From the UHGV virus genome UHGV-1493261: a DNA stretch of 64,000 nucleotides; one strand, 5' to 3'. This stretch comes from a virus. Positions 2,968 to 29,661 of the stretch are shown piece after piece. The first letter of the stretch is position 1; every line of letters begins with the position of its first letter. The position numbers and the translations under genes were made by a program. The notes beneath the pieces were generated by a model. The model was given only the letters and a program-made list of their open reading frames with translations. It made no database searches and was not told where the DNA came from.

Positions 2968-2975
2968 AACATCCA

Positions 2976-2994
2976 CCCCTCTTCGGAGGGGTTT
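2976..2994 (+). terminator. Weak terminator/attenuator hairpin between the tailspike genes
   Basis: CCCCTC-TTCG-GAGGGG followed by a short TTT. Confidence 0.35.
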
Positions 2995-3017
2995 ACTAGA
3001 AAAACGAAGAGGTTGTT

Positions 3018-13585: not shown

Positions 13586-14302
13586 ATGAGTGCTATGTCA
13601 GAACGCCTATTATCCACCCTCAGTGCTATCCAAGCGCGGGATGAGGTCGCTCAAGAAGTCATGGAGAAGACCTCGCCTATGGCCGGAAAAGATTACGATC
13701 CGGACACAGGCGAATGGTTGGGTGAAAAGCCTGCGGGGTATGAGTCTGCGGGGTATGAGCCTGTGGTGTTTCCTCCTTCATTGGACCCAGAAGAGCTGAA
13801 GCCCAAGGAGTCTAAGGTTCCAGACTTCGAAGACACTGATGCCACCACCGACTACAAACGTATCCGTGACACGACTTATGCCATGCAGGAAGCCACGATG
13901 TTCATGATGGGACAGGCAGCCAAACTTGCGACGACGACTGAAGCACCCCGTGCTTTCACAGTCTTCAAAGAGTTGGGTGAACTCATGCGCGGTCTGAACA
14001 AAGACCTGATGGAGAACCAGAAAACTATCAAGGCGGTCACGGGCGACAGAGAGCCACCTCCTGGAGACGAAACAACCGTCGAGGTCACCACGTCCCCTGA
14101 TGGCACAACCACGGTCAACGTCGGTAAACAGGCCAGGTCTTCTCGTGATCTACTGAAGACCATCGAAGACGCCCGTAAACGTGCTGAAGAACGTACTGCA
14201 GCGAAAGCTGCATCCAAAGGACCTGATCCCGAAGAAGATGTAATCGACGTTCAGGCAGAGCCGAAGGAAGAAGGTGAAGACGATGGCGTATCAGAAGCGT
14301 GA
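13586..14302 (+). CDS. gp16: Terminase small subunit (gp16-like)
   Basis: Segment DYKRIRDTTYAMQEATMFMMGQAAKLATTTEAPRAFTVFKELGELM aligns with remembered T4 gp16; acidic C-terminus; overlaps the large subunit start. Confidence 0.7.
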   Translation: MSAMSERLLSTLSAIQARDEVAQEVMEKTSPMAGKDYDPDTGEWLGEKPAGYESAGYEPVVFPPSLDPEELKPKESKVPDFEDTDATTDYKRIRDTTYAMQEATMFMMGQAAKLATTTEAPRAFTVFKELGELMRGLNKDLMENQKTIKAVTGDREPPPGDETTVEVTTSPDGTTTVNVGKQARSSRDLLKTIEDARKRAEERTAAKAASKGPDPEEDVIDVQAEPKEEGEDDGVSEA

Positions 14303-16493
14303 TGTAGAATATGCCCCGCTCAAGACGGGGTTTAAGACAGAAGACGTCAGACTGCGTATGGACCAAACGTTCATGCGCAAGCCGTCTGTGCGCGCTCCTC
14401 GCGTGGAGTTGATGCTAACAGATGAGCAGGAATCGGAGTTCGTCGAGTGCGCGATGGATGCCCATTACTTCGCCGCCAACTACTACAAGATCACGACCAT
14501 CGATAAAGGCTTCATCCTCTTTGACATGCACGATTACCAGAAGCAGTTGTTCCATGACTTCCAGGACTATCGATTCAATGCGGTCGTCCAGGCTCGTCAG
14601 TCTGGGAAATGTGTAAAAGGTGACACGCTTGTCACAGTTTACGATACTCTCAGCCAAGAGCAGTTGCTCCTGACCATAGGGGAGCTTCACAGCCGCTTCG
14701 AGGACGTCAACCACGCTGTGCCGCTGAATACCATTGGCAACCATGACAAGTTCGTGGACAGCCGCTTCGGCAAACGTTACTTTGTGCAATCCGATAGTGG
14801 CTGGGTTCCGGTTATCGCAGCGCATAAGACGAAGAAATATGCGGAATTCGTTATTGTGACTGTTACTGGGCGGCGAATTAACGTGGCCGACGAACATATA
14901 TTCTTCACTCCGGAAATGAAGGAGATATTTGCCAAAGACCTGAATGCTGGGTCATACATCATGACGTCAGAAGGTCCAGAAGAAATCCGTGAGATTTGGC
15001 AGACTGGTGAGACGCATCACATGTATGACCTACAGGTGAAATCTAGTGATCAGCGCTACTACACCAACGGCTTCCTCAGCCACAACACGACAGTCGTGGC
15101 AGCATTCCTTCTCTGGTATGCCATGTTCCACTCTGACAAAGAGATCGCAGTACTGGCGAACAAAGAGAAGCAGGCGATTGAAATCCTAGATCGTATTCGC
15201 AAAGCATATCAAGATTTGCCATTCTTCCTCCAACAGGGTTGTGAGAAGTTCGGTTCCACGCTGATCGAGTTCGAAAACGGATCAAAGATCTACGCCTATG
15301 CGACATCTTCCGACTCCATCCGTGGTCGATCTGTATCGCTCCTGTATGTGGACGAAGTGGCGTTCATTGAAAACGACTTTGAATTCTGGGAGTCTACATT
15401 CCCGGCGATTGCATCTGCAGAGACTTCACGTTGTATTCTGACCAGTACGCCGAAAGGTCAGCGCGGGTTGTTCTACGACATCGTCACCAAGGCGAACCCA
15501 GAACATCCACAATACAACGACTTCAAACTCACAGAGGTCCCATGGTATCGTGTTCCAACGTACACCAAAGATCCAGACTGGGAATCCAAACAGAGGGCGA
15601 AGCTGGGTGATGCACGTTTCGATCAAGAATTTGGCATTAAGTTCCGTGGTTCTGTGGGATCACTGATACCTGCCAAGTGTCTGGACAAGATGACCTCGAA
15701 GCTGTATCAGGAGCCGAACGAGTTCACCAAGATTTACCACGACTACGATCCGAAGCGCATTTATATGGGTATCGCAGATACAGGCAAGGGTGTCGAGGGG
15801 GATTATTCTGTGCTGACCATTATCGACATCACAGACTATCCTCACAAGATCGCAGCCAAGTATCGAAATAACACGATACCTCCAATGATGTATGCGTACA
15901 CAATCGCCGATATGGGCGAGAAGTATGGAACGTGCCCGATGCTAGTCGAGACTAACAACGACGTGGGTGGTCAGGTAATCACAATTCTATACCAGGAAAT
16001 TGAATATCCCGAGATCATCTTCACCACAACAGATACCAAGGGTACAGGCAAGAGAATCGGTGGTCGCCGCCCTGAACCTGGTATCAATACCAACAAGAAG
16101 GTGCGCACAAACGGCTGTGCCAACCTGAAAGCCCTGATTGAACGTGAAATGCTGGTGATAGATGACCAGGACACGATAGATGAACTCAGTACATTCGTAT
16201 GGACTGGGACAAGGTATGAAGCCGATGATGGTTGTCATGATGACTGTGTAATGCCTCTTGTGCTGTATGCATGGGCGGTGAAACAAGAATGGTTTAGTGA
16301 CCTCACCAACTCCAGTATCTCAGTCGACATGAGAGGACGGTTGTCTGCGATGGAAGAATCACAGATGCTACCATTTGGAGGTATGATGTCGGCGCCAGAT
16401 CCTCACTCTGTGGAGAACATCCCAGGGTTCGGTGGAATTCAGGTTTATGACGACCGCTCTGGTATGTCTATGGAAGAATGGCTGAGACGGTGA
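14283..16493 (+). CDS. gp17: Terminase large subunit (gp17-like), intein-containing
   Basis: Walker A QARQSGK|C..HN|T interrupted by a Hint domain; downstream ATPase/nuclease regions (LLYVDEVAF Walker B-like). ATG at 14283 (track GTG start 14274). Confidence 0.9.
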   Translation: MAYQKRDVEYAPLKTGFKTEDVRLRMDQTFMRKPSVRAPRVELMLTDEQESEFVECAMDAHYFAANYYKITTIDKGFILFDMHDYQKQLFHDFQDYRFNAVVQARQSGKCVKGDTLVTVYDTLSQEQLLLTIGELHSRFEDVNHAVPLNTIGNHDKFVDSRFGKRYFVQSDSGWVPVIAAHKTKKYAEFVIVTVTGRRINVADEHIFFTPEMKEIFAKDLNAGSYIMTSEGPEEIREIWQTGETHHMYDLQVKSSDQRYYTNGFLSHNTTVVAAFLLWYAMFHSDKEIAVLANKEKQAIEILDRIRKAYQDLPFFLQQGCEKFGSTLIEFENGSKIYAYATSSDSIRGRSVSLLYVDEVAFIENDFEFWESTFPAIASAETSRCILTSTPKGQRGLFYDIVTKANPEHPQYNDFKLTEVPWYRVPTYTKDPDWESKQRAKLGDARFDQEFGIKFRGSVGSLIPAKCLDKMTSKLYQEPNEFTKIYHDYDPKRIYMGIADTGKGVEGDYSVLTIIDITDYPHKIAAKYRNNTIPPMMYAYTIADMGEKYGTCPMLVETNNDVGGQVITILYQEIEYPEIIFTTTDTKGTGKRIGGRRPEPGINTNKKVRTNGCANLKALIEREMLVIDDQDTIDELSTFVWTGTRYEADDGCHDDCVMPLVLYAWAVKQEWFSDLTNSSISVDMRGRLSAMEESQMLPFGGMMSAPDPHSVENIPGFGGIQVYDDRSGMSMEEWLRR
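14610..15086 (+). mobile_element. Mini-intein (159 aa, no endonuclease domain) in the terminase P-loop
   Basis: Starts with Cys immediately after QSGK, ends ..MYDLQVKSSDQRYYTNGFLSHN followed by Thr (block F/G signature); removal restores QSGKT. Confidence 0.8.
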
Positions 16494-16545: not shown

Positions 16546-18441
16546 ATGGCAACTCAAAGCTTCAGCGTTGCGCCGTCCGTACAGTGGACTGAGCGTGATG
16601 CCACGCTTCAGACGTCTCCATCCGTTGTTGTTCAGGGTGCGACTGTCGGCAAATTCCAATGGGGTGAAGCAGAACTCCCTGTGTTGGTCACTGGTGGCGA
16701 AACTGGTCTGGTGAAGAAATTCTTCAAGCCAAACGATGCAACTGCCACCGACTTCTTGGTGATTGCTGACTTCCTGTCTTACAGCTCCGTTGCATGGGTG
16801 ACCCGTGTGGTCGGTCCGGCGGCACGCAACGCTGTAACCAAAGGTCAGACTGCAATCCTTATCCGCAACAAACTAGACTTCGAAACTGCGTCCCCATCTG
16901 CGTCTATTACCTGGACAGGTCGCTATGCTGGCTCTCTGGGTAACGACATTGCTGTGAACATCTGTGATGCTGCGCTGTTCCCGACCTGGGAATTCCGTAA
17001 CAACTTCGCATATGCTCCGCAGGCTGGCGAGTACCATATCGCCATCGTTGACAAAGTAGGTCGCATTACCGACTCTTCTGGCGCTGTTAGTCAGGTTGAT
17101 CGTATCTCTGTATCCGGTACTGCCTCCGCTTCTGGTTCCATCTCTGTTGCTGGTAAAGCCGTGGCGTACACTGACGCTGACACTCCGGCGACTCTGGCGA
17201 CAAAGATCGGAACCGCGCTGACGTCCCTGTCTGACGTGTATTCTTCTGTTGTCGTGAAGTCCAACACCGTCACCGTCACTCACAAAGCAATCGGTCCTCA
17301 GGCTGCGACTGCGATTGTTCCAGACGCGAATGGTCTGACTGCTACCGCTGCCGTCACCACTGTTGGTGCTTCCGGTACGATCATCGAGAAGTATGAACTG
17401 GTGCAGACCGCTCAGGGTTCTAAGAAATCTGATGGATCCAATGCGTACTTCAAAGACGTGATCAACGGCACCTCAAATTGGGTGTACACCTTCGCCACTA
17501 CCCTGGCTGCTGGTGTCATTGAACTCGAAGGTGGTGTAGACGATTACACTGGGAACCGTGTTGCGGCTATCCAGGCACTGAACAACGCCGAAGCGTATGA
17601 TGCCAAGCCAGTGTTCGGTTTCTGTGAAGAACTGATTGAGCAGCAGGCACTGATAGACCTGTCCACTGAGCGTAAAGACACAGTGTCCTTTGTGTCTCCT
17701 CTTCGCGATACGGTCGTCGGAAACCGTGGCCGTGAGATGGATGATGTTGTGGCCTGGCGTGAAAGCCTTGTTCGCGACTCCTCCTACTTCTTCATGGATG
17801 ACAACTGGGCGTATGTGTACGACAAGTACAACGACAAAATGCGTTGGATTCCGGCTTGTGGCGGCACCGCAGGTGTTTGGGCGCGAAGCATTGAAATCGC
17901 GGGTATCTACAAATCTCCGGCGTTCCACAACCGTGGTAAATACAACAACTATAATCGAATGGCTTGGTCTGCGTCTTCTGATGAGCGTGCTGTGCTGTAT
18001 CGCAACCAGATCAACAGCATTGTCACCTTCTCCAACGAAGGCATCGTGTTGTACGGCGACAAGACTGGCCTGACCCGCCCATCTGCGTTCGACCGCATCA
18101 ACGTTCGTGGTCTGTTCATTATGGCAGAACAGAACATCGCAGCCATCGCCAAATACTACCTTGGTGAGAACAACGATGCATTCACTCGTGGGTTGTTCAG
18201 CAACGCTGTCCGCCCATATATCCGCCAGTTGGCCAACATGGGCGCGATCTATGACGGGATGGTGAAGTGTGACGAGGACAACAACACCGCTGATGTTATC
18301 GCAGCCAACACCATGGTCGCGGGTATCTGGCTGAAACCAGAATACAGCATTAATTGGATTTATCTTGATTTTGCTTCCGTCCGTCCAGACATGGAATTCA
18401 GTGAGATCGAATCCGGCGGTGGTATCGTCGCTGCTTCCTGA
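16546..18441 (+). CDS. gp18: Tail sheath protein (gp18-like)
   Basis: 632-aa ORF, T4 gp18-like size and position after the terminase; ATG at 16546 with AGAAGGAA Shine-Dalgarno. Confidence 0.85.
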   Translation: MATQSFSVAPSVQWTERDATLQTSPSVVVQGATVGKFQWGEAELPVLVTGGETGLVKKFFKPNDATATDFLVIADFLSYSSVAWVTRVVGPAARNAVTKGQTAILIRNKLDFETASPSASITWTGRYAGSLGNDIAVNICDAALFPTWEFRNNFAYAPQAGEYHIAIVDKVGRITDSSGAVSQVDRISVSGTASASGSISVAGKAVAYTDADTPATLATKIGTALTSLSDVYSSVVVKSNTVTVTHKAIGPQAATAIVPDANGLTATAAVTTVGASGTIIEKYELVQTAQGSKKSDGSNAYFKDVINGTSNWVYTFATTLAAGVIELEGGVDDYTGNRVAAIQALNNAEAYDAKPVFGFCEELIEQQALIDLSTERKDTVSFVSPLRDTVVGNRGREMDDVVAWRESLVRDSSYFFMDDNWAYVYDKYNDKMRWIPACGGTAGVWARSIEIAGIYKSPAFHNRGKYNNYNRMAWSASSDERAVLYRNQINSIVTFSNEGIVLYGDKTGLTRPSAFDRINVRGLFIMAEQNIAAIAKYYLGENNDAFTRGLFSNAVRPYIRQLANMGAIYDGMVKCDEDNNTADVIAANTMVAGIWLKPEYSINWIYLDFASVRPDMEFSEIESGGGIVAAS

Positions 18442-18449
18442 TAAACAAA

Positions 18450-18478
18450 CCCCGCTTCGGCGGGGTTTTAAATTTTTT
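18450..18478 (+). terminator. Rho-independent terminator
   Basis: CCCCGC-TTCG-GCGGGG followed by a T-rich run. Confidence 0.6.
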
Positions 18479-18502
18479 CCCAGATTATTTTATTGAATTA
18501 CT

Positions 18503-18529
18503 TTACTTCTTCAATAACTCACGTATAAT
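18503..18529 (+). promoter_or_regulatory. Sigma70-like early promoter candidate
   Basis: TTTACT -35, 15-nt spacer, TATAAT -10; the -10 context TATAATTCTAAA recurs at 26705. Confidence 0.4.
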
Positions 18530-18577
18530 TCTAAACATAAGCAGTACGACACCAACTTGAAACGAAGGATCTATATC

Positions 18578-18934
18578 ATGACCAAGACCGAAATTAACGC
18601 TATCCTGAAAGAAATCGGCCTCTGTAACCTGAAACGCCGCATCAATCCTTACCAGCCTGCAAAGCCAGTACGCGACAGCCAGGGAAAGATGATAAAAGGG
18701 ATCTACTGTGCAGATGTTGGTCCAATGACGGTGACCAGTCCACACATTGACAGATTTAACGCTATCGTTGAGGAGTTTTGTGGTAAGGTTCTGGGTAAAC
18801 TATCTAATGATTTATGCTCCCCAGATACCAAAGTTGTAGCTTTCGGGAGCCACCTCGTCACCTTCCACCTCACCAGCTTCCGTGCCCACGGTGATTATCA
18901 TGTGTATTATGCTCAGGTTGGCATTCGCAAATAG
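18578..18934 (+). CDS. Hypothetical protein (119 aa)
   Basis: ATG with AAGGA Shine-Dalgarno inside a conserved leader (gaaggatctatatcATG) shared with the gene at 28953. Confidence 0.5.
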   Translation: MTKTEINAILKEIGLCNLKRRINPYQPAKPVRDSQGKMIKGIYCADVGPMTVTSPHIDRFNAIVEEFCGKVLGKLSNDLCSPDTKVVAFGSHLVTFHLTSFRAHGDYHVYYAQVGIRK

Positions 18935-18942
18935 TAGTTTAC

Positions 18943-18961
18943 CCCGCTGAGGCGGGGTTTT
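18943..18961. terminator. Bidirectional terminator hairpin between convergent genes
   Basis: CCCCGC-TGAG-GCGGGG followed by TTTTAGTTTT; overlaps the stop of the minus-strand gene. Confidence 0.5.
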
Positions 18962-20744
18962 AGTTTTCCAGTTCATACCGGATAAGACCACACCCCCAGA
19001 TACGCCCCAACCCGGCTTCTATCGCCAGCATATCTTCTGTTTTACCTTCTATATCGTATCCAAGTTTAAGGAATTTCTCTTTCCTGAAATTGAATTTGTG
19101 TATACGTAAGCTATAGTCTGGGGTCACATATTTGTAATCAGGGGGAAGGATTTCCTTTTCAACAAATCCGTTATTCAGGTAAACATTTTTCAGACGACTG
19201 ACAACACAACGATCACCAAAAGAATATACTGTCTCACCCCGATGTCGAGCGATATAATATTTCAGCAAGCGTGAGAATGCGCCATGGCAATTGTTAGAAG
19301 CAAATCTCACCAATTCAATACCATGCACTCGTTTGGTAAACAACATCACAGCCTGGATATTCCCAGTTTTGTCTACAAGGTGTATATAATCTGTCGCCAC
19401 CACACCACCTTGTATATGGAATCGGTCGAGAAAGTCCTTGGACGTCCTATAGGATCCTTCCAAAATGGTATGTTGGCGAGCGTATGACAATGGTTTCCCT
19501 ATCCCCAATTTTGCTTTAAGGAGTGATTTGACCACTTCCTGTTTCTCAACCCACTCATCTTCCCAGATATGGATTAATTGAATGCCCTGGGCTTCACAAT
19601 ACATGGTCTTTTCAAGATGGTAGTCTTTGTATCGATATTTCTCCGAATGCCAGTACAACCCATTAAATTCTATTGCCAACTTATGTTCTGGGCAGTATAT
19701 GTCTATCTGGCGTGTGGTCACCCTACCGTTGAACATTTTACCTCTGAGGACGGAGAAATTACCAGATTCATAAACGACACCCAATGAATCCAGGTATGAA
19801 CATATTTCTATTTCTGGCTGCGTTTGGTTTTGGCTGCTGGGGTACGTGAAAGAGTTCCTATATTCTTCAGAAGAGAAATAGTGAGATACGCCGTATTTTT
19901 CTTTTGAAATGATCCTGGTATTGACCTGGCTTCTATCCCATATAGCCTTTACCTTCAACGGATAATCAACCCCATATTTTAAGACGCATGTTTTCTTTCT
20001 CTTTTCTATAATGGAATTGAGGAACATTGGATGATCCACACCATAGATCTTCCTCCAAGTCTCAATCACCCTTTCCCTCACTTCTGGCATTTTCATGACG
20101 TGTGATACGCCATAGCGTTCCATGACGGAAGCAGCCACTCTGTCCTTTATAACATCAGACTTCATAGGGTGGTCGACCCCATATTTCTTAAGGACAGTTT
20201 CCCGTGACTTTTGTTTTACTTCTTCCAGCTGGAATGTGTTGGCTACGCCATATTTCTCTGATATGGCGTTTTCTAAGTTGGTCCGTTCTGAGCATCCCGC
20301 CTTCATTGATTTTCGTTGGCATTCTTCGGAACAAAACTTTTTGTATCTGGGTGGTTGGGCTTCCATTTCTAAGCCGACGTCAGCACCGCAAGTGACACAC
20401 TGCGACTTCGGAATATCGTACAGCCAAGCAGTTATCGCTTGTGGTTCTTCTAATAGGTCGTTGTGTGACACCACGTATCCAACAACATCAACCCCAGTAT
20501 GGGCTGTGAGTAGGGGATGAGAGATAAGTTTGTAGTTCAACGAACCATCTTTCTTCCTGAGTTTACTATCAACCCAAGAGCGGCATTCAGTTTCGGTCGT
20601 CGGGATGTTATCCAACAAACCCGGATTGCGTTTCATCGTTCCCAGCATGAATGATTTACATTCGTCACTACAATACAACGCAGCCTTCCTGGTTGGGGTG
20701 AACGGTTTGTGGCAGCATGAACAATTTTTATCGGGGAATGACAT
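18960..20744 (-). CDS. Freestanding homing-endonuclease-like protein: two zinc ribbons, tandem KYGV repeats, Vsr/DUF559-like PD-(D/E)xK nuclease domain
   Basis: 594 aa from ATG at 20744 (GAGGA Shine-Dalgarno). CxCC..CxxxC and CxxC..CxxxC motifs; about 33-aa repeats containing KYGV(x)HP; RQIDIYCPEHKLAIEFNGLYWH..IHIWEDEW nuclease core. Inserted on the opposite strand between sheath and tube genes. Confidence 0.8.
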   Translation of the reverse strand: MSFPDKNCSCCHKPFTPTRKAALYCSDECKSFMLGTMKRNPGLLDNIPTTETECRSWVDSKLRKKDGSLNYKLISHPLLTAHTGVDVVGYVVSHNDLLEEPQAITAWLYDIPKSQCVTCGADVGLEMEAQPPRYKKFCSEECQRKSMKAGCSERTNLENAISEKYGVANTFQLEEVKQKSRETVLKKYGVDHPMKSDVIKDRVAASVMERYGVSHVMKMPEVRERVIETWRKIYGVDHPMFLNSIIEKRKKTCVLKYGVDYPLKVKAIWDRSQVNTRIISKEKYGVSHYFSSEEYRNSFTYPSSQNQTQPEIEICSYLDSLGVVYESGNFSVLRGKMFNGRVTTRQIDIYCPEHKLAIEFNGLYWHSEKYRYKDYHLEKTMYCEAQGIQLIHIWEDEWVEKQEVVKSLLKAKLGIGKPLSYARQHTILEGSYRTSKDFLDRFHIQGGVVATDYIHLVDKTGNIQAVMLFTKRVHGIELVRFASNNCHGAFSRLLKYYIARHRGETVYSFGDRCVVSRLKNVYLNNGFVEKEILPPDYKYVTPDYSLRIHKFNFRKEKFLKLGYDIEGKTEDMLAIEAGLGRIWGCGLIRYELEN

Positions 20745-20792
20745 AATAAATATCCTCACTTTGGAGTATTTTAACCCCCATTTATTTCAAAA

Positions 20793-20799
20793 CTAAATA
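20793..20799 (+). promoter_or_regulatory. Late-promoter-like motif CTAAATA
   Basis: aactaaatattta upstream of the tail tube gene. Confidence 0.4.
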
Positions 20800-20825
20800 T
20801 TTACACTATTCAGAGGAGAACAACC

Positions 20826-21359
20826 ATGGCTACAGTTAATGAATTCAGAGCAGCTATGTCACGCGGGGGTGGCGTTCAGCGCCAACACCGTTGGCGTGTG
20901 ACTGTTAACTTCCCTTCCTTCGTGGCTGGAAGCGATACTATCCGTGATGTTTCGCTGTTGGCGGTGACCACAAACACCCCAACAGGCCAGCTCGGGGAAA
21001 TACTCGTCCCATGGGGTGGTCGTGAACTTCCATTCCCAGGCGACCGTCGTTTCGAAGCGCTGCCTGTAACGTTTATCAACGTTGTGGACAACGCCCCGTA
21101 CAACGCATTCGAAGTCTGGCAGCAGTATATCAACGGCAGCAACAACAACCGTGCGTCTGCTAACCCAGATGATTATTTCCGTGATGTAATCATGGAACTG
21201 CTGGATGCGAATGACAACGTCACCAAGACCTGGACCCTTCAGGGCACCTGGCCTCAGAACCTCGGTCAGCTGGAACTGGACATGTCTGCAATGGACTCTT
21301 ATACTCAGTTCACTGTTGACCTGCGTTACTTCCAGGCCATTTCAGACAAGTCTCTCTAA
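20826..21359 (+). CDS. gp19: Tail tube protein (gp19-like)
   Basis: C-terminal TWPQNLGQLELDMSAMDSYTQFTVDLRYF parallels remembered T4 gp19 LWPTNVGELQLDWDSNNEIQTFEVTLALDYW; AGAGGAGAA Shine-Dalgarno. Confidence 0.8.
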   Translation: MATVNEFRAAMSRGGGVQRQHRWRVTVNFPSFVAGSDTIRDVSLLAVTTNTPTGQLGEILVPWGGRELPFPGDRRFEALPVTFINVVDNAPYNAFEVWQQYINGSNNNRASANPDDYFRDVIMELLDANDNVTKTWTLQGTWPQNLGQLELDMSAMDSYTQFTVDLRYFQAISDKSL

Positions 21360-21425
21360 TGTCCTCAGTGCTGGGGGATCTTTATTCCCCCTCACTAATT
21401 ACAAGAAAATGTTGAGGACTTAATC

Positions 21426-23120
21426 ATGGCATTCGGTAATGGTGCATTCGGAAATGGGTTCTTCGGCCTGTTCGGTAGAGGCGGCAAAGTAGAAGCGCCG
21501 ATTGATACCGACAAGATGGTCACGAACCAAGAAGAGAAGTTGCTTTCAAAGGCGACTGTTGTTGCTCTGGACGATTCTCAGGATGGTTCCATCATCCTCC
21601 AGGGCGGCGCGAACACATTCAATTTCGTTGGTGTTGAGAATGAGTTGCTCAACGTCAAACAGCTGGTCGAAGAGTACCAGTCTATGGCTCAGCAGCCTGA
21701 GATTCGTAAGGCTGTGGATATCATTGTCAACGACATCGTCACCTGTGAAGAGGACGAGACTCCTGTAACTATCAACCTGGAAAAGGTAGATGGCATCACA
21801 AACGAAGTCAAAGAGAAGATCACCGACGCATTCAAAGAGATCATGCATCTCCTTGACTTTGACAACACAGCGTATCAGAAGATCCGCAAATGGTATATTG
21901 AAGGCCGTCAGGCATTCCACGTTGTAGTGGACCCGAAGAACAAGAAAGCGGGTATCGCCAAACTCATCATGATGGACTCACGCTGTATCCGTCCTGTATA
22001 CATCGTTCAAAAGGCGATGCGCGACGGTATCGAAGTCATCAATGACGTAAAACTTCAATACTACTACAACCCGAACTACAACCGCAACCAATTCACTGGA
22101 CAGTCCGGTACGTCTCAGAACTTCCAACCGTCACAGCAAGAGCTGGTGTTCGACGATGAGAGCATAGTGTATCTGGACAGTGGTGAAGAGCCTCTGGCGA
22201 ATGGGGTTGTACCCAGCCTGCTGAACCCAGCTATCCGTCCCCTGAACAACCTTGTTACAACTGAAGATGCAACGGTGATCTATGCGATCACACGTGCTCC
22301 TGAGAAGCGAGCGTTCTATCTCGACGTGGGTACGCTGGGTAAGAAGTCGGCCGAAGAATACATGCAAGCCATGATGGGCAAATTCAAGAACCGTCTGGCG
22401 TATGATCGCACCACTGGTAAGGTGGCTGGCAACACTCATTTGATGGGTATCGCTGAGGACTACTGGCTGCCACGTCGTGAAGGGCAGAACGCAACCGAGA
22501 TCTCCAACGTAGGCGGTGGCGATCAACTGGGTCAAATGGATCATGTGGTATACTTCCGCGAGAAGCTCTACGAGGCTCTGATGATCCCTAAGAGCCGCCT
22601 GCAAGAGGAAGGTTCTATCAACATCGGTGGTTCCAATCTTGCTGAAATCACACAGGAAGAACTGCGCTTCAACAAGTTCTGTGCGAGCCTGCGCCGTCGT
22701 TATTCTTCTGGTATCTTCCTGGAACTTCTGCGCCGTCAACTGATATTGAAAGGCATTACAGATCAGGCTGACTGGAATGAGAAGATCAAGCCGTTCGTCA
22801 AGTTCGAATTCACTTCTGACAGCTTCATCCGTGAACAACAAGAGAACGAAATCTTGTCACAGCGTATGGCGGCTCTCGGTCAGATCGAACCATATATCGG
22901 CACTCTCTTCTCTATCGATTTTGCTCAACGCAATTTGCTGCGTATGTCCGATGAAGACATCAAAGACCAGCAAGAGAAGATCGAGAAAGAGAAGAAAGAA
23001 GGCAAATACCCTGAAGTGCAGGCAGATGAGTCCGGCGGCTTCGGCAGCGGGGAAGTCAGTCCACTGAAATTCAGACCTAACGTCATCCCAGCGACTAACC
23101 CTCCTGGTGGTGAAGAATAA
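21426..23120 (+). CDS. gp20: Portal protein (gp20-like)
   Basis: 564-aa ORF directly upstream of the prohead core/protease/scaffold/capsid genes, as in T4; GAGGA Shine-Dalgarno. Confidence 0.85.
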   Translation: MAFGNGAFGNGFFGLFGRGGKVEAPIDTDKMVTNQEEKLLSKATVVALDDSQDGSIILQGGANTFNFVGVENELLNVKQLVEEYQSMAQQPEIRKAVDIIVNDIVTCEEDETPVTINLEKVDGITNEVKEKITDAFKEIMHLLDFDNTAYQKIRKWYIEGRQAFHVVVDPKNKKAGIAKLIMMDSRCIRPVYIVQKAMRDGIEVINDVKLQYYYNPNYNRNQFTGQSGTSQNFQPSQQELVFDDESIVYLDSGEEPLANGVVPSLLNPAIRPLNNLVTTEDATVIYAITRAPEKRAFYLDVGTLGKKSAEEYMQAMMGKFKNRLAYDRTTGKVAGNTHLMGIAEDYWLPRREGQNATEISNVGGGDQLGQMDHVVYFREKLYEALMIPKSRLQEEGSINIGGSNLAEITQEELRFNKFCASLRRRYSSGIFLELLRRQLILKGITDQADWNEKIKPFVKFEFTSDSFIREQQENEILSQRMAALGQIEPYIGTLFSIDFAQRNLLRMSDEDIKDQQEKIEKEKKEGKYPEVQADESGGFGSGEVSPLKFRPNVIPATNPPGGEE

Positions 23121-25307: not shown

Positions 25308-26633
25308 ATGGCTAAGAAACTTGTTACCGAACAAATGCGCGAGCAGTGGCTGCCAGTTCTTCAGAAAGAATCTGAAAGCATCCAGCCGCTTTCTGCCGAA
25401 AACGTTGCCGTCCGTCTGCTGCAAAACCAGGCTGAGTGGAACGCCAAAAACCTGGGCGAATCTGACGCTCCTGGCTCCGTGAACGCCTCTGTTGGCAAAT
25501 GGCAGCCAGTCCTGATCGACATGGCCAAACGTCTGGCTCCGGTCAACATCGCGATGGACTTCTTCGGCGTTCAGCCGCTGTCTGGTCCTGACGGTCAGAT
25601 CTTTGCTCTGCGTGCTCGCCAGGGCATTTCAGACGGTGGATCCAACACCCAACATTCCCGTAAAGAACTGTTCATGCAGGAAGCTGATTCTGGCTACTCT
25701 GGTGACGACACTGCTCAGGCTGGCGACCCATCTGGCTTTACCCAGACTGAGATCGAAGGTTCCGGCGCTGCCACCACCACCATTGGTAAAGGCATGCCAA
25801 CCAAGGACGCTGAACTTCTGGGCACCACCACCAACCCATGGGCACGTGTTGGTATCACCGTTCAGAAAGCAACCGTGACTGCGAAGTCTCGCGGCCTGTA
25901 CGCTGACTACAGCCATGAACTGCGCCAGGACATGATGGCGATCCACGGCGAAGACGTTGACAGCATCCTGTCCGACGTGATGGTAACTGAAATTCAGGCA
26001 GAGATGAACCGTGAGTTTATCCGCACCATGAACTTCAGCGCAGTACGCTTCAAAAAATTCGGCAAGAACGGCATTGTGGACATCTCCACTGACATCTCCG
26101 GTCGTTGGGCGCTGGAAAAATGGAAGTACATGACTTTCATGCTGGAAGTTGAAGCGAACGGCATCGGTGTTGACACCCGTCGTGGTAAAGGCAACCGTGT
26201 TCTGTGCTCCCCGAACGTAGCATCCGCTCTGGCGATGTCTGGCATGCTGGATTATGCTCCGGCGCTGCAGGAAAACACCAAGCTGGCGATTGATCCGACT
26301 GGCCAAACCTTCGCTGGTGTGCTGTCTAACGGTATGCGTGTCTACATCGACCCGTATGCAGTAGCAGAATACATCACCCTGGCATACAAAGGCGCAACCG
26401 CACTGGATGCTGGTATCTTCTTCGCGCCATACGTGCCGCTGGAAATGTACCGCACCCAGGGTGAAACCACCTTCGCACCACGCATGGCGTTTAAAACCCG
26501 CTACGGTATCTGTGCTAACCCATTCGTTCAGATCCCAGCGAACCAGGATCCACAGGTCTATGTGACTGCGGACGGTATCGCCCAGGACAGCAACGTGTAC
26601 TTCCGTAAAGGGCTGATCAAAGGCCTGTTCTAA
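25308..26633 (+). CDS. gp23: Major capsid protein (gp23-like)
   Basis: DFFGVQPLSGPDGQIFALRA, FKTRYGICANPF and C-terminal YFRKGLIKGLF align with remembered T4 gp23 motifs (DICGVQPMNSPTGQVFALRA, FKTRYGIGINPF, YFRRVYVKGI). ATG at 25308 chosen for Shine-Dalgarno spacing (alternative 25299). Confidence 0.9.
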   Translation: MAKKLVTEQMREQWLPVLQKESESIQPLSAENVAVRLLQNQAEWNAKNLGESDAPGSVNASVGKWQPVLIDMAKRLAPVNIAMDFFGVQPLSGPDGQIFALRARQGISDGGSNTQHSRKELFMQEADSGYSGDDTAQAGDPSGFTQTEIEGSGAATTTIGKGMPTKDAELLGTTTNPWARVGITVQKATVTAKSRGLYADYSHELRQDMMAIHGEDVDSILSDVMVTEIQAEMNREFIRTMNFSAVRFKKFGKNGIVDISTDISGRWALEKWKYMTFMLEVEANGIGVDTRRGKGNRVLCSPNVASALAMSGMLDYAPALQENTKLAIDPTGQTFAGVLSNGMRVYIDPYAVAEYITLAYKGATALDAGIFFAPYVPLEMYRTQGETTFAPRMAFKTRYGICANPFVQIPANQDPQVYVTADGIAQDSNVYFRKGLIKGLF

Positions 26634-26661
26634 TCGAACAGTTGTCCTTAACCCTGACAAA

Positions 26662-26688
26662 CCCCGCCAACGTGCGGGGTTTTCTTTT
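26662..26688 (+). terminator. Rho-independent terminator
   Basis: CCCCGC-CAACGT-GCGGGG followed by TTTTCTTTT. Confidence 0.6.
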
Positions 26689-26737
26689 GAAACAAACCAG
26701 CATATAATTCTAAAATAATAACAGGTAGGATTAGATC

Positions 26738-27796
26738 ATGATTCACATATGCCGGACATGCAAAACCTCATTCGTCAATGCCCAGTCAAAGGCAGTCTAC
26801 TGTAGTGTTGATTGCAGAACCTTTTACCAAACAGTTGGCATCAAATTCTCCCCAGAGTTAATGTCGGACGCCAAATTTATTCAAACGGAAGATGACTACA
26901 AAGACTTCATCCGTGAATATTTCTATATGAAGAATGGCAACCTGAATTACCAACTACTGTCTTCACCCCTGTTGGCATCTTACCTTGGCGTAGACCCCCT
27001 CAAATATGCCAACCAGCACAACTCTGAAGAATCCGTGAACGCCCGTGTATTGGTCTGGTTACACGACGTCAAACCAACACCTTGTATCACCTGCGGTGCT
27101 AGAACTTCTGTCGAGATTAAGAAGTCTATCCCATCCTACCGGAAATATTGTTCGGAGGAATGCTATGCCCAATCAATGAAGTTGGGTGGTGAAGCCCGTA
27201 AAGTCTTGGACAAGACAATCCTTGACAAATATGGTGTATCCAACGTATTCCAGAATGAATCTGTAAAGGGCAGGGCAAGGGCTACCTTACTTCGGCGTTT
27301 CGGTGCGGAACATGTTATGCAATCAGAACATGGGCGACAGCTGTTCAAAGATTCCGTGATGGAGAAGTATGGAGTTGAGCATCCGATGCAGGTGGAAGAG
27401 GTCAAACAACGCGCCTGGGAAACCCTCGGTGCTCGGTCTTGGTATGCTACCCCAGAAGGTAAAGCGGCACGAGAGAAGGCATTCGGGGAGTATGAGGGCG
27501 GTCATCCTATGCGTGATGCTGCAGTCTTAAACAAATTGATCAAGACCAATTTAGAAAGATATGGAAAGGAATGGACGGGACAAGTACAAGAAATTCGAGA
27601 TAAGATAGGAAAAACTGTATTCGATCGTTACGGGGTTAAATGCTCTCTAAACACAGAAGTTTGCTTAGAAAATGCCAGGATAAAAAATATTGAGTTATAT
27701 GGCGTTCCGTATGCTATGCAAAACAAATCCGTTTGGGAATACGTTATTTCTTTCCGTAAATTCCAGTCCAAACCAGAAATAGAAATATCCGAGTAG
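26738..27796 (+). CDS. Homing-endonuclease-like paralog, N-terminal part (zinc ribbons + KYGV repeats), ends at an in-frame amber codon
   Basis: Paralogous to the N-terminal half of the minus-strand gene 18960-20744; TAG at 27794-27796 aligns with a Tyr codon of the intact copy. Confidence 0.6.
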   Translation: MIHICRTCKTSFVNAQSKAVYCSVDCRTFYQTVGIKFSPELMSDAKFIQTEDDYKDFIREYFYMKNGNLNYQLLSSPLLASYLGVDPLKYANQHNSEESVNARVLVWLHDVKPTPCITCGARTSVEIKKSIPSYRKYCSEECYAQSMKLGGEARKVLDKTILDKYGVSNVFQNESVKGRARATLLRRFGAEHVMQSEHGRQLFKDSVMEKYGVEHPMQVEEVKQRAWETLGARSWYATPEGKAAREKAFGEYEGGHPMRDAAVLNKLIKTNLERYGKEWTGQVQEIRDKIGKTVFDRYGVKCSLNTEVCLENARIKNIELYGVPYAMQNKSVWEYVISFRKFQSKPEIEISE

Positions 27797-27805
27797 CTCG
27801 CCTCA

Positions 27806-28648
27806 ATGGGTGTTGTACACAAGTGCTCAGACTTCACCCTCCTAAACAATATGAATTGCCAGGACGGTGGAACTCGGCGCCAGATCGACATCTACTGTCC
27901 AGACCACAAACTGGCAATTGAATTTAACGGCCTGTACTGGCATAGTGAGATACACAAATATCGCCGTTATCATCTCGAAAAGACAGAGGCATGTGAAGCA
28001 CAAGGCGTTCAGCTGATACACATCTGGGAAGATGAGTGGCATAACAACCCAGAGATCGTGAAAGGGTTGCTGGCTGCCAAACTCGGGATCAAGAAGCCAT
28101 CCGGGTACGCCCGTCAGTGTTATGTAGAGGAAGGTAAGAAGTCGGACATTCTAGAACTCCTGGCCTCTCAACACATACAGGGCACCATTCATTCGGCCAC
28201 GCATTACCTTCTCCTCAGAGATAAGAGAGACAACCGGGTTCGGGCTGTCATGACCTTTATCAAACGTGTGGTGAAGGGGGAACAGTGTATGGAACTTACG
28301 AGGTTTGCCTCCGACGGCATTCACGGGGCGTTCTCTAAACTGCTGGCGTACTACAAGGAACATCTCTGGGATGGCGTGAAGACTTTCTCCTTTGGCGATA
28401 GGTGTGTTGTTAGTCGGTTGTCCAACATTTATCTTTCTCACGGGTTCGCCGAGGAAGAAATACAAGACCCGGATTACAAATATCACAAACCAGGGACTCT
28501 CATGCGGGAGCACAAGTTTGGATTCAGAAAGACAGACTTTGCTCAGATGGGCTATGACGTAGAAGGTAAGACAGAAGATCAGTTAGCAACCGAAGCCGGG
28601 CTGGTCAGGATTTGGAATTGTGGACTGATCAAATATGTCTTGAACTAA
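27806..28648 (+). CDS. Homing-endonuclease-like paralog, C-terminal part (Vsr/DUF559-like nuclease domain)
   Basis: In frame with 26738-27796 (27806-26738 is divisible by 3); RQIDIYCPDHKLAIEFNGLYWH..IHIWEDEW matches the intact paralog. Confidence 0.6.
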   Translation: MGVVHKCSDFTLLNNMNCQDGGTRRQIDIYCPDHKLAIEFNGLYWHSEIHKYRRYHLEKTEACEAQGVQLIHIWEDEWHNNPEIVKGLLAAKLGIKKPSGYARQCYVEEGKKSDILELLASQHIQGTIHSATHYLLLRDKRDNRVRAVMTFIKRVVKGEQCMELTRFASDGIHGAFSKLLAYYKEHLWDGVKTFSFGDRCVVSRLSNIYLSHGFAEEEIQDPDYKYHKPGTLMREHKFGFRKTDFAQMGYDVEGKTEDQLATEAGLVRIWNCGLIKYVLN

Positions 28649-28710
28649 AAGAACATTTCAATAACGGGGTGAGAGGTATTATTGCCCCGTCTACTACCGA
28701 GGGCTGTGCC

Positions 28711-28935
28711 ATGTATCTGAAAAAGACTGTGAAGAATCCGAAAGGTGAGGTGATTGAAGTGCACCTGGTCGAGGCTTATGTTGACTCGTGGAATAGTGAG
28801 CAGCGTTACTTCATGGTCAATACGATGGTGTATGTGCCAGCCTCTCACCTGAACCGCGATTTCATCACAACCGAGAACATCGTCCGCTGGGAGATTGCAA
28901 CGCAGTCCGATATCGACGAACACAACATTCTTTGA
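28711..28935 (+). CDS. Hypothetical small protein (74 aa)
   Basis: Internal ATG of track ORF 28612 with GAGGG Shine-Dalgarno, just after the endonuclease stop. Confidence 0.35.
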   Translation: MYLKKTVKNPKGEVIEVHLVEAYVDSWNSEQRYFMVNTMVYVPASHLNRDFITTENIVRWEIATQSDIDEHNIL

Positions 28936-28952
28936 AAGGAAGGATCTATATC

Positions 28953-29396
28953 ATGTGTGACAAGAATTTCATTTTCATTAGTCCCGCCAAGAAACAGTTC
29001 TTCCGTAGTTCCGTTGGGGACAAGGTGAAAGGTTTCCGTAAATTCAAAGATTATCGCCTGGCATGCGGTGATGTTGATTTTCAGAGTTTCGACAATGATC
29101 GCCAGGATTTGAACGATGAGGGTTGGACAGAAGTTCCATCCCCACAGTTTATCGACGTCAAGCTGTACTACATGAAGGACAGTGGGAAGTATTATTCAGA
29201 GGGTGTGATCAAAATCAACCGTGGGGAGGCCGAGGCCGAACCTGCTAAGTCCTGGATGGAGACTATGGATAAAATCCGCTATCTGCTTGACTCAGGCAAT
29301 TTGCCTGGTTTGGTTAAAGGTGCCCAGTACGAGGTCTTCGTGACCGGAGAAGGGCATCCAGGTGGGTATCCGGCGGCATTCCGCGTTAACAACTGA
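28953..29396 (+). CDS. Hypothetical protein (147 aa)
   Basis: ATG in the conserved leader gaaggatctatatcATG (same as 18578). Confidence 0.5.
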   Translation: MCDKNFIFISPAKKQFFRSSVGDKVKGFRKFKDYRLACGDVDFQSFDNDRQDLNDEGWTEVPSPQFIDVKLYYMKDSGKYYSEGVIKINRGEAEAEPAKSWMETMDKIRYLLDSGNLPGLVKGAQYEVFVTGEGHPGGYPAAFRVNN

Positions 29397-29404
29397 GGTC
29401 AAAC

Positions 29405-29641
29405 ATGATTATCAAAAAGATCGGCACAAGTCCTCTCACTGGTACTATATTCCAGGGCAGGTTGAACACCAAAACCAGCATGTGGGTTGGTGGGAAGACC
29501 GACGTGACAGATGACTGCGTAGCAGCTGTAGCTGAACACTTGCGTCACATCAAGAAAGACTATTGCTTCCCAACGACGGATGGTAAGTTTCTGGTGCTGA
29601 GCGCCGAGGTTCACGACACCCTTCCTGATCGCTTCAAATAA
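29405..29641 (+). CDS. Hypothetical protein (78 aa)
   Basis: ATG with GAGG Shine-Dalgarno. Confidence 0.45.
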   Translation: MIIKKIGTSPLTGTIFQGRLNTKTSMWVGGKTDVTDDCVAAVAEHLRHIKKDYCFPTTDGKFLVLSAEVHDTLPDRFK

Positions 29642-29661
29642 ATTTTAAATTTATTCAATAA

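What the first reader, a model, noticed from the sequence alone, without database searches (positions are those of the whole stretch)
26738..28648. Homing-endonuclease-like gene split by an in-frame amber codon, with an intact paralog on the opposite strand
ORFs 26738-27796 and 27806-28648 share one frame, separated only by TAG at 27794-27796. Against the intact paralog (18960-20744, minus strand) the stop aligns with a Tyr (EIEICSYLDSLGVV vs EIEISE*LASMGVV). The break falls between the zinc-ribbon/KYGV-repeat region and the Vsr/DUF559-like nuclease domain. Both halves are otherwise intact, so this is either a recent nonsense mutation, a two-piece enzyme, or readthrough-controlled expression. 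Both copies interrupt the T4 structural order (between gp18/gp19 and after gp23), as freestanding homing endonuclease genes do.
Basis: seen in the sequence. Interest (0 to 1): 0.6.

Follow-up and report, generated by a model that had tools for sequence, protein, structure and literature searches.

The report
Homing endonuclease gene broken by stop
A selfish "homing endonuclease" gene sitting behind the capsid gene of a ViI-like (Ackermannviridae) phage carries a single G-to-A change that turns a conserved tryptophan codon into a stop; this is ordinary early decay of a mobile gene, not a new expression mechanism.

Summary
ORFs 26738-27796 and 27806-28648 share one frame and are separated only by TAG at 27794-27796. 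Together they match the intact paralog at 18960-20744 (minus strand) end to end (44% identity, E 8e-172).

The interpretation reduces to the plainest option. Eleven distinct intact 636-aa versions of this same allele exist in other metagenomes, and all have TGG (Trp) at codon 353. So do the 662-aa orthologs of phages A221 and PC3. The window differs from two intact copies at 16-17 of 1911 bases, one of which is G->A at 27795.

The gene belongs to the known Hef-like / EDxHD (Vsr-like) homing endonuclease family. It sits at a known insertion hot-spot after gp23, the site of F-LimVII in Dickeya phage LIMEstone1.

The stop is not at a domain border. It lies in the first helix of the nuclease domain, after conserved Glu347 and before Asp384, Glu395 and His402.

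Nothing supports programmed expression. There is no Shine-Dalgarno before the second ATG, no tRNA in the window and no suppressor tRNA in relatives, and TAG is a normal stop elsewhere.

The amber allele is known from one metagenome-assembled genome, so a consensus error cannot be excluded. Interest is low.

The parts
26659..26682 (+). Terminator-like hairpin after gp23 (stop 26631-26633). Homology to relatives with a different or no endonuclease gene ends at 26641-26689, so this marks the upstream edge of the cassette.
   Evidence: 9-bp stem, 6 GC pairs, T-run; homology breakpoints.
26687..26716 (+). Sigma-70-like promoter match (TTGAAA-18-TAAAAT, 10 of 12), followed by AGGTAGG (Shine-Dalgarno-like) before ATG 26738. 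A consensus match only.
26738..28648 (+). Whole Hef-like/EDxHD homing endonuclease gene (636 codons when codon 353 is read as Trp), now interrupted.
26738..27796 (+). First ORF, 352 aa + TAG. It holds two Cys4 zinc-ribbon-like motifs (aa 5-26 and 116-142), helical K/R-Y/F-G-V repeats (DUF7487, aa ~152-340) and the first 9 residues of the nuclease domain, including the S-K-P-E347 motif.
27794..27796 (+). Amber codon TAG at codon 353. Position 27795 is A here and G (TGG, Trp) in every intact allele and ortholog. It lies in predicted helix 345-356.
27806..28648 (+). Second ORF, 280 aa, starting at Met357 of the full protein. It holds the rest of the Vsr-like nuclease domain (Asp384, Glu395, His402; to about aa 450) plus a GNAT-fold C-terminal domain (aa 455-636). 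There is no Shine-Dalgarno in the 20 nt before its ATG.
27767..28087 (+). [quoted passage not shown]
   Evidence: 3R3P, E 3.1e-9, alignment starts at the S-x-P-E motif.
28100..28645 (+). C-terminal GNAT (acetyltransferase)-like fold domain, aa 455-636, conserved across the family; role unknown.
   Evidence: 2fia, E 0.014; Foldseek 1y9k E 2.5e-4, 4ua3 E 4.4e-4; pLDDT > 90.
18960..20744 (-). Intact paralog, 594 aa, same architecture. It lies between the tail sheath and tail tube genes and matches the LIMEstone1 stretch that carries F-LimVIII at 89.5% nucleotide identity.

Best explanation
The locus is a free-standing Hef-like (EDxHD, Vsr-like PD-(D/E)xK) homing endonuclease gene. It occupies the mobile-element hot-spot just downstream of the major capsid gene gp23 in an Ackermannviridae (Aglimvirinae-like) phage genome assembled from a metagenome.

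In this one genome a single G->A transition at 27795 changed Trp353 (TGG) to amber (TAG). Translation from ATG 26738 should therefore stop after 352 residues. The product would be a DNA-binding fragment (zinc ribbons plus DUF7487 helical repeats) carrying only the first turns of the nuclease domain.

The rest of the gene (nuclease core plus GNAT-like domain) is at best made in trace amounts, by reinitiation at ATG 27806 or by background readthrough, and it would lack the first helix with conserved Glu347. The gene is thus most likely a very young pseudogene: the first step of the invasion, fixation, decay and loss cycle expected for homing endonuclease genes once no empty target sites remain.

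Shown: the mutation, its polarity, the family, and the position of the stop in the fold. Inferred: loss of activity, and that the change is a true mutation rather than a consensus error.
For: 1. One internal stop in an otherwise full-length gene.
2. The 90%-identity protein cluster holds 11 distinct intact 636-aa variants, together recorded on at least 27 contigs, and all have W353. The only fragments of 352, 311 and 280 aa come from this genome.
3. DNA of two intact copies from other samples (L005, L006) has the same length and no indels, with 16-17 differences in 1911 nt, one of them TGG versus TAG. Of the 17 differences to L005, 10 are synonymous, 6 missense and 1 nonsense, so most divergence predates any relaxation of constraint.
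4. The A221 and PC3 orthologs also have TGG.
5. The family is assigned by three lines of evidence. PHROG 3339 'homing endonuclease' scores E 1e-105 and 3.5e-34 for the two halves. Hits to LIMEstone1 F-LimVII, III and X, classed as Hef-like in PMC3296691, appear. A family profile matches the I-Bth0305I nuclease structure 3R3P at E 3.1e-9, and PMC3239194 places Hef-type enzymes in that EDxHD family.
6. The stop lies within helix 345-356 of a confident model and between near-invariant E347 and invariant D384/E395/H402.
7. The site after gp23 holds 636-, 662-, 508- or 490-aa Hef-like alleles or none (MK-13), with sharp homology breaks at about 26690 and 28650, as expected for a mobile cassette.
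Against: The amber allele rests on one assembled genome. The ENA and JGI records are identical over about 27 kb (0 differences) and so are not independent. Reads could not be inspected, so a consensus error or a minority variant is possible. Both halves are otherwise undamaged, so loss of function is inferred, not shown. A Met codon 10 nt after the stop leaves some room for reinitiation. About 90 kb of the source genome, including the region where relatives carry tRNA genes, could not be retrieved.
Confidence: 0.8

Rival explanations
1. Assembly or sequencing artefact: the phage really has TGG, and the A at 27795 is a consensus error or a minority variant fixed by the assembler.
For: Only one metagenome-assembled genome carries it. 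The two database records are the same sequence. All other alleles have G at this position.
Against: The allele also has its own private changes on both sides of the stop: S80A and A599T, plus four synonymous differences in the first 150 nt where L005, L006, A221 and PC3 all agree against the window. It therefore looks like a genuine separate lineage rather than a chimera. From general knowledge, single-base consensus errors in short-read assemblies are rare, while nonsense mutations in homing endonuclease genes are common.
Confidence: 0.1
2. Functional two-piece enzyme: the N-terminal DNA-binding fragment and a C-terminal nuclease/GNAT fragment, restarted at ATG 27806, associate and still cut DNA. 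Alternatively, the DNA-binding fragment alone has a role, for example masking the target site.
For: Both ORFs are intact, and the ATG lies 10 nt after the stop in the same frame. A few short stand-alone nuclease+GNAT proteins exist in the family, 5 of the best 150 cluster representatives.
Against: The split is not seen in any of the 11 sister alleles, the orthologs or the paralog. It cuts the first helix of the nuclease fold and separates Glu347 from the other conserved nuclease-domain residues, D384, E395 and H402. There is no Shine-Dalgarno before ATG 27806. In 145 of the 150 best family representatives the N-terminal region and the nuclease are fused, and the best-preserved short one, P0249, keeps the whole first helix.
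Confidence: 0.05
3. Regulated expression by amber readthrough or suppression: a small amount of full-length nuclease is made through a host or phage suppressor tRNA or through leaky termination, limiting toxicity.
For: The base after the stop is C (TAG-C), which from memory of E. coli termination studies is a weak termination context. Some relatives carry tRNA-Tyr(GTA), one anticodon mutation away from an amber suppressor.
Against: - The window contains no tRNA and no Rfam hit.
- A221, of which 150,000 of 153,297 bases were scanned, has only Ser(GCT) and Met(CAT). Other relatives add Asn, Tyr and Arg, and none has a CTA anticodon.
- TAG ends 5 other long ORFs in the window, so it is a normal stop.
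- There is no unusual RNA structure after the stop (z -1.4).
- The stop is not conserved in any relative.
Confidence: 0.04

Closest known systems
F-LimVII and F-LimVIII, Hef-like free-standing homing endonucleases of Dickeya phage LIMEstone1 (Adriaenssens et al. 2012, PMC3296691)
   Same: Same protein family (P0010 = F-LimVII, E 2e-144). Same genomic sites: F-LimVII lies next to the major capsid gene, and F-LimVIII lies on the opposite strand beside the tail tube gene. The window stretch holding the paralog and its right-hand neighbours is 89.5% identical in DNA to the LIMEstone1 stretch with F-LimVIII.
   Different: F-LimVII is 490 aa with a different, shorter N-terminal region (55% identity over 57% of the query), and it is intact. 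The window allele is of the 636-aa type and carries an amber codon.
Hef of T4-like phage U5 (Sandegren, Nord and Sjoberg 2005, NAR 33:6203; cited in PMC2988022 and PMC3296691)
   Same: It is the founding member of the 'homing endonuclease-like function' family: a free-standing gene between conserved phage genes. The review PMC2988022 says it targets nrdB.
   Different: The link to U5 Hef is indirect. It rests on annotations of relatives as Hef-like; the U5 sequence and the original paper were not available here. The host phage family and the insertion site both differ.
I-Bth0305I, prototype of the EDxHD (Vsr-like) homing endonucleases (Taylor et al. 2011, PMC3239194; PDB 3R3P)
   Same: The catalytic domain is homologous (profile E 3.1e-9) from the S/T-x-P-E helix onward. 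That paper lists phage Hef-type enzymes as members of the family.
   Different: I-Bth0305I is intron-encoded, 266 aa, and has NUMOD-type DNA-binding motifs and no C-terminal extension. The window protein is free-standing, with zinc ribbons, DUF7487 repeats and a GNAT-like C-terminal domain.
Defunct homing endonuclease genes in T4-type phages, e.g. I-TevIII of T4 (PMC2790892, PMC2988022)
   Same: A homing endonuclease gene inactivated by mutation while still resident at its site; an expected stage of the life cycle of such elements.
   Different: A different nuclease family. I-TevIII sits in the nrdB intron, whereas here the gene is free-standing and the lesion is a single nonsense codon.

Membership tests
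Hef-like / EDxHD (Vsr-like) homing endonucleases | Vsr-like nuclease domain homologous to I-Bth0305I | tested here: met
   A family profile built around the intact allele hits 3R3P at E 3.1e-9, with the alignment covering the whole catalytic domain. Pfam MTES_1575/DUF559 hits are sub-threshold.
Hef-like / EDxHD (Vsr-like) homing endonucleases | Conserved catalytic-type residues (Glu in the first helix, Asp, His, plus further acidic residues) present on one polypeptide | tested here: not met
   All the residues are encoded: E347 near-invariant, and D384, E395 and H402 invariant in 31 sequences. In the window, however, TAG at codon 353 separates E347 from the rest. The feature is met in the 11 intact sister alleles. 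The window copy is therefore a disrupted member.
Hef-like / EDxHD (Vsr-like) homing endonucleases | Sequence relationship to proteins named Hef-like | tested here: met
   Hits to F-LimVII, III and X (E 2e-144 to 9e-115), which PMC3296691 classes as Hef-like. GenBank relatives are annotated 'Hef-like homing endonuclease' and 'homing endonuclease EDxHD'. A direct comparison with U5 Hef was not made.
Hef-like / EDxHD (Vsr-like) homing endonucleases | Free-standing gene between conserved genes, with presence/absence and allele polymorphism among close relatives | tested here: met
   The site after gp23 holds 636-, 662-, 508- or 490-aa alleles or no endonuclease gene (MK-13). Homology breaks at about 26690 and 28650.
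Hef-like / EDxHD (Vsr-like) homing endonucleases | Site-specific cleavage of the gene-less allele and homing in mixed infection | not testable with these tools
   Needs nuclease assays and phage crosses.
Programmed stop-codon readthrough or suppressor-dependent gene | The stop codon is conserved among relatives | tested here: not met
   All 11 intact alleles and the A221 and PC3 orthologs have TGG; the paralog has a Tyr codon.
Programmed stop-codon readthrough or suppressor-dependent gene | A suppressor tRNA (anticodon CUA) in the genome, or a readthrough-promoting element | tested here: inconclusive
   None in the 64-kb window, none in A221 or four other relatives, and no special RNA fold after the stop. 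The remaining ~90 kb of the source contig could not be fetched.
Naturally split (two-gene) nuclease | Break at a domain border, own translation start signal, and recurrence in relatives | tested here: not met
   The break is inside the first nuclease helix. There is no Shine-Dalgarno before ATG 27806. The split is unique to this genome, and 145 of the 150 best family representatives are fused.

The most novel reading that the evidence does not exclude
The amber codon is tolerated or even useful. One version: the 352-aa fragment acts on its own as a sequence-specific DNA-binding protein, for example protecting or marking the homing site. Another version: trace amounts of nuclease activity, made by reinitiation at ATG 27806 with reassembly of the two fragments, or of full-length protein made by readthrough, keep a toxic nuclease at a safe level.
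Probability: 0.05. Interest if true: 0.45.

Novelty: new member of a known kind. Interest (0 to 1): 0.12.

Why it matters
It matters little on its own. It is a clean, datable example of the first step of homing endonuclease gene decay: one transition, with intact sister alleles still circulating. For annotation, the two ORFs should be merged and flagged as a disrupted Hef-like homing endonuclease gene rather than called as two hypothetical proteins. The wider family may merit study in its own right. It is very large (18,019 cluster representatives at 50% identity with E <= 0.001) and barely characterised, and it carries a conserved GNAT-like domain of unknown role. That point does not depend on this amber codon.

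Tried and rejected
1. Global TAG reassignment: rejected. TAG ends 6 of 57 long ORFs in the window, including a 572-aa helicase gene.
2. Suppressor tRNA: none in the window; none in A221 or in relatives L015, L016, L017 and L029.
3. Fetching the tRNA region of the source contig: failed. The metagenome scan, the viral-contig scan, a protein search and a contig look-up returned only relatives.
4. Exact-pattern scans of IMG/VR for the TAG/TGG junction and for a conserved 35-mer of the gene: no matches.
5. RNA element promoting readthrough: the fold is not unusual (z -1.4) and there is no Rfam family in the window.
6. Chimeric assembly with the paralog as the source of the diverged middle part: rejected. 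The middle part is 99% identical to independent intact alleles L005 and L006 and only 44% identical in protein to the paralog.
7. Independent confirmation from the second database record: rejected. The ENA and JGI contigs show 0 differences over 6,843 and 18,969 bases, whereas other phages encoding the identical helicase protein differ by 15-22 nt in that one 1.7-kb gene.
8. The original Hef paper (PMC1275590) is not held. P0131, a 265-aa cluster member, could not be looked up.

Full report
**Observation.** The window holds ORF 26738-27796 (352 codons, ending in TAG) and ORF 27806-28648 (280 codons) in the same frame. A straight translation of 26738-28648 has a single internal stop at codon 353. 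An intact 594-aa ORF lies at 18960-20744 on the minus strand. The joined sequence aligns to it from residue 5 to 635 at 44% identity, E 8e-172, with the stop opposite a Tyr. Pfam finds DUF7487 (helical K-Y-G-V repeats) in the first ORF and sub-threshold Vsr-like hits (MTES_1575, DUF559) in the second. PHROG 3339 'homing endonuclease' covers the two halves consecutively, at E 3.5e-34 and 1e-105.

**Source.** The window equals positions 1-64000 of JGI contig Ga0495776_138208 (154,275 bp). The same sequence is in ENA assembly ERZ28576386, scaffold_69, 154,887 bp. The two records show no differences over 6,843 and 18,969 bases. Other phages that encode the identical helicase protein differ by 15-22 nt in that gene alone. 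The two records therefore represent one genome, not two observations. The nearest GenBank phages are Escherichia phages A221, PC3 and PH4 (Ackermannviridae, Aglimvirinae), at 92-94% identity. This is a ViI-like phage with a T4-like structural module, not a T4 phage proper.

**Polarity of the change.** A protein search with the joined sequence returned an intact 636-aa protein at 99% identity (P0001).
- Its 90%-identity cluster holds 11 distinct intact 636-aa variants, together recorded on at least 27 contigs.
- The only fragments of 352, 311 and 280 aa in that cluster come from this genome.
- There is also one 265-aa member that I could not trace.
- All 11 intact variants read ...PEIEISEWL....
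- DNA of two intact copies from other samples (L005, L006) has the same length and no indels. It differs at 16-17 of 1911 positions, one of which is TGG versus TAG, with G->A at 27795.
- Of the 17 differences to L005, 10 are synonymous, 6 missense and 1 nonsense.
- The 662-aa orthologs of A221 and PC3 also have TGG.
- The changes private to the window are S80A, W353* and A599T.

The stop is therefore derived, is unique to this genome, and is recent relative to the ~0.9% divergence among these alleles.

**Family.** The hits include F-LimVII, F-LimIII and F-LimX of Dickeya phage LIMEstone1, which the LIMEstone1 paper classes as Hef-like free-standing homing endonucleases. That paper places F-LimVII next to the major capsid gene and F-LimVIII on the opposite strand beside the tail tube gene (PMC3296691). 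These are the two sites occupied in the window, and the stretch holding the paralog matches the LIMEstone1 stretch that carries F-LimVIII at 89.5%. [quoted passage not shown] The I-Bth0305I paper assigns phage Hef-type enzymes to that 'EDxHD', Vsr-like family (PMC3239194). GenBank relatives are annotated 'Hef-like homing endonuclease', 'homing endonuclease EDxHD' and, once, 'nuclease/acetyltransferase'. The family is very large: 18,019 cluster representatives at E <= 0.001.

**Where the stop falls.**
- The 3R3P alignment begins at the S-x-P-E motif (S344-K-P-E347), which forms the first helix of the crystallised nuclease domain.
- In the alignment E347 is near-invariant, and D384, E395 and H402 are invariant.
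- An AlphaFold model of the intact allele (mean pLDDT 84) has helix 345-356 followed by the beta-strands that carry D384 and E395.
- Codon 353 is therefore inside the nuclease domain, six residues after E347. In the family consensus it is an aromatic, core-type position (W, Y or F), aligned to Ile in I-Bth0305I.
- The 280-aa ORF starts at Met357 and lacks that helix.

**Tests of programmed expression.**
- There is no Shine-Dalgarno in the 20 nt before ATG 27806, whereas the gene's own start has AGGTAGG and a sigma-70-like promoter match after the gp23 terminator.
- TAG ends 6 of 57 long ORFs in the window.
- The window has no tRNA and no Rfam hit.
- A221 (150,000 of 153,297 bases scanned) has only tRNA-Ser(GCT) and tRNA-Met(CAT). 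Four other relatives add Asn, Tyr(GTA) and Arg, and none has a CTA anticodon.
- The RNA after the stop folds no better than shuffles (z -1.4).
- Of the 150 best family representatives, 145 have the nuclease fused to a long N-terminal region. Five are short, and the best-preserved of these (P0249) keeps the full first helix.
- I could not retrieve the other ~90 kb of this contig, so a phage-encoded suppressor is not formally excluded.

**Mobility context.** Homology to relatives breaks just after the gp23 terminator (26641-26689) and resumes at 28652-28656, next to the gene's stop. The site carries a 636-aa allele (this lineage), a 662-aa allele (A221, PC3), a 508-aa allele (fGh-Ecl02), a 490-aa allele (ZQ1, RPN242, and the LIMEstone group at 490-491 aa), or two small unrelated ORFs (MK-13).

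The alleles are mosaics. Compared with A221, the first ~480 nt and the last ~800 nt are nearly identical, while the repeat region is only about 80% identical and is 78 nt shorter, roughly one repeat unit. The fGh-Ecl02 allele shares only 27850-28696, at 98.9%. Recombination between repeats in the DNA-binding regions of phage homing endonuclease genes has been described before (PMC10448857).

**Verdict.** This is a Hef-like homing endonuclease gene with a single, recent TGG->TAG nonsense mutation. That is the expected early decay of a selfish gene, or less likely a consensus error in a metagenome assembly. It is a disrupted new allele of a known family at a known site. Interest is low.

Noticed in passing
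window 28100-28645 (aa 455-636 of the joined protein); the same region in the paralog at 18960-20744 (-): The conserved C-terminal third of Hef-like endonucleases has a GNAT (acetyltransferase) fold: profile hit 2fia at E 0.014, Foldseek hits 1y9k at E 2.5e-4 and 4ua3 at E 4.4e-4, and model pLDDT above 90. G530, S533 and K534 are (near-)invariant where GNATs bind CoA. Pfam has no model for this region. One GenBank record calls a relative 'nuclease/acetyltransferase'. Its role in a homing endonuclease is unknown.
   Followed up: partly
window 27220-27830 versus L001 (A221) 2720-3410: The alleles at the post-gp23 site are mosaics. The 5' ~480 nt and 3' ~800 nt are nearly identical to A221, but the DUF7487 repeat region is ~80% identical and 78 nt shorter (about one repeat). 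The fGh-Ecl02 allele shares only 27850-28696 (98.9%). This suggests module exchange or repeat recombination in the presumed DNA-binding region.
   Followed up: partly
window 14274-16493 (+): The terminase large subunit ORF is 739 aa and has a sub-threshold Pfam Intein_splicing hit at aa 130-231 (29.5 bits against a cutoff of 35.8), ahead of Terminase_6N (aa 272-464). This may be an intein remnant or an insertion.
   Followed up: no
window 28652-28696; L001 (A221) 4231-4534: A 45-nt stretch just after the endonuclease gene aligns to two places in A221 that flank an extra small ORF (L001 4291-4491) absent from the window. RPN242 has that ORF and ZQ1 lacks it. This looks like an indel between direct repeats.
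   Followed up: no
window 28670-29654 versus L005/L006: The contigs that carry the intact 636-aa allele lack this ~1-kb block of three small ORFs directly downstream of the gene and have other ORFs instead. The flank of the endonuclease gene is itself variable.
   Followed up: no
window 18300-21500 versus LIMEstone1 (H54) and window 26000-29500 versus LIMEstone1 (H38): The stretch holding the paralog, the tail tube gene and the start of the portal gene matches Dickeya phages at 89.5% identity. The gp23-side flank of the split gene matches them at only ~83-84%. This hints at more recent exchange of the F-LimVIII-type element between phage genera.
   Followed up: no
L017 6911-6999: ARAGORN reports a tRNA-like gene with an undetermined two-base anticodon next to tRNA-Ser in a related IMG/VR contig. 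It is probably a pseudo-tRNA or a false call.
   Followed up: no
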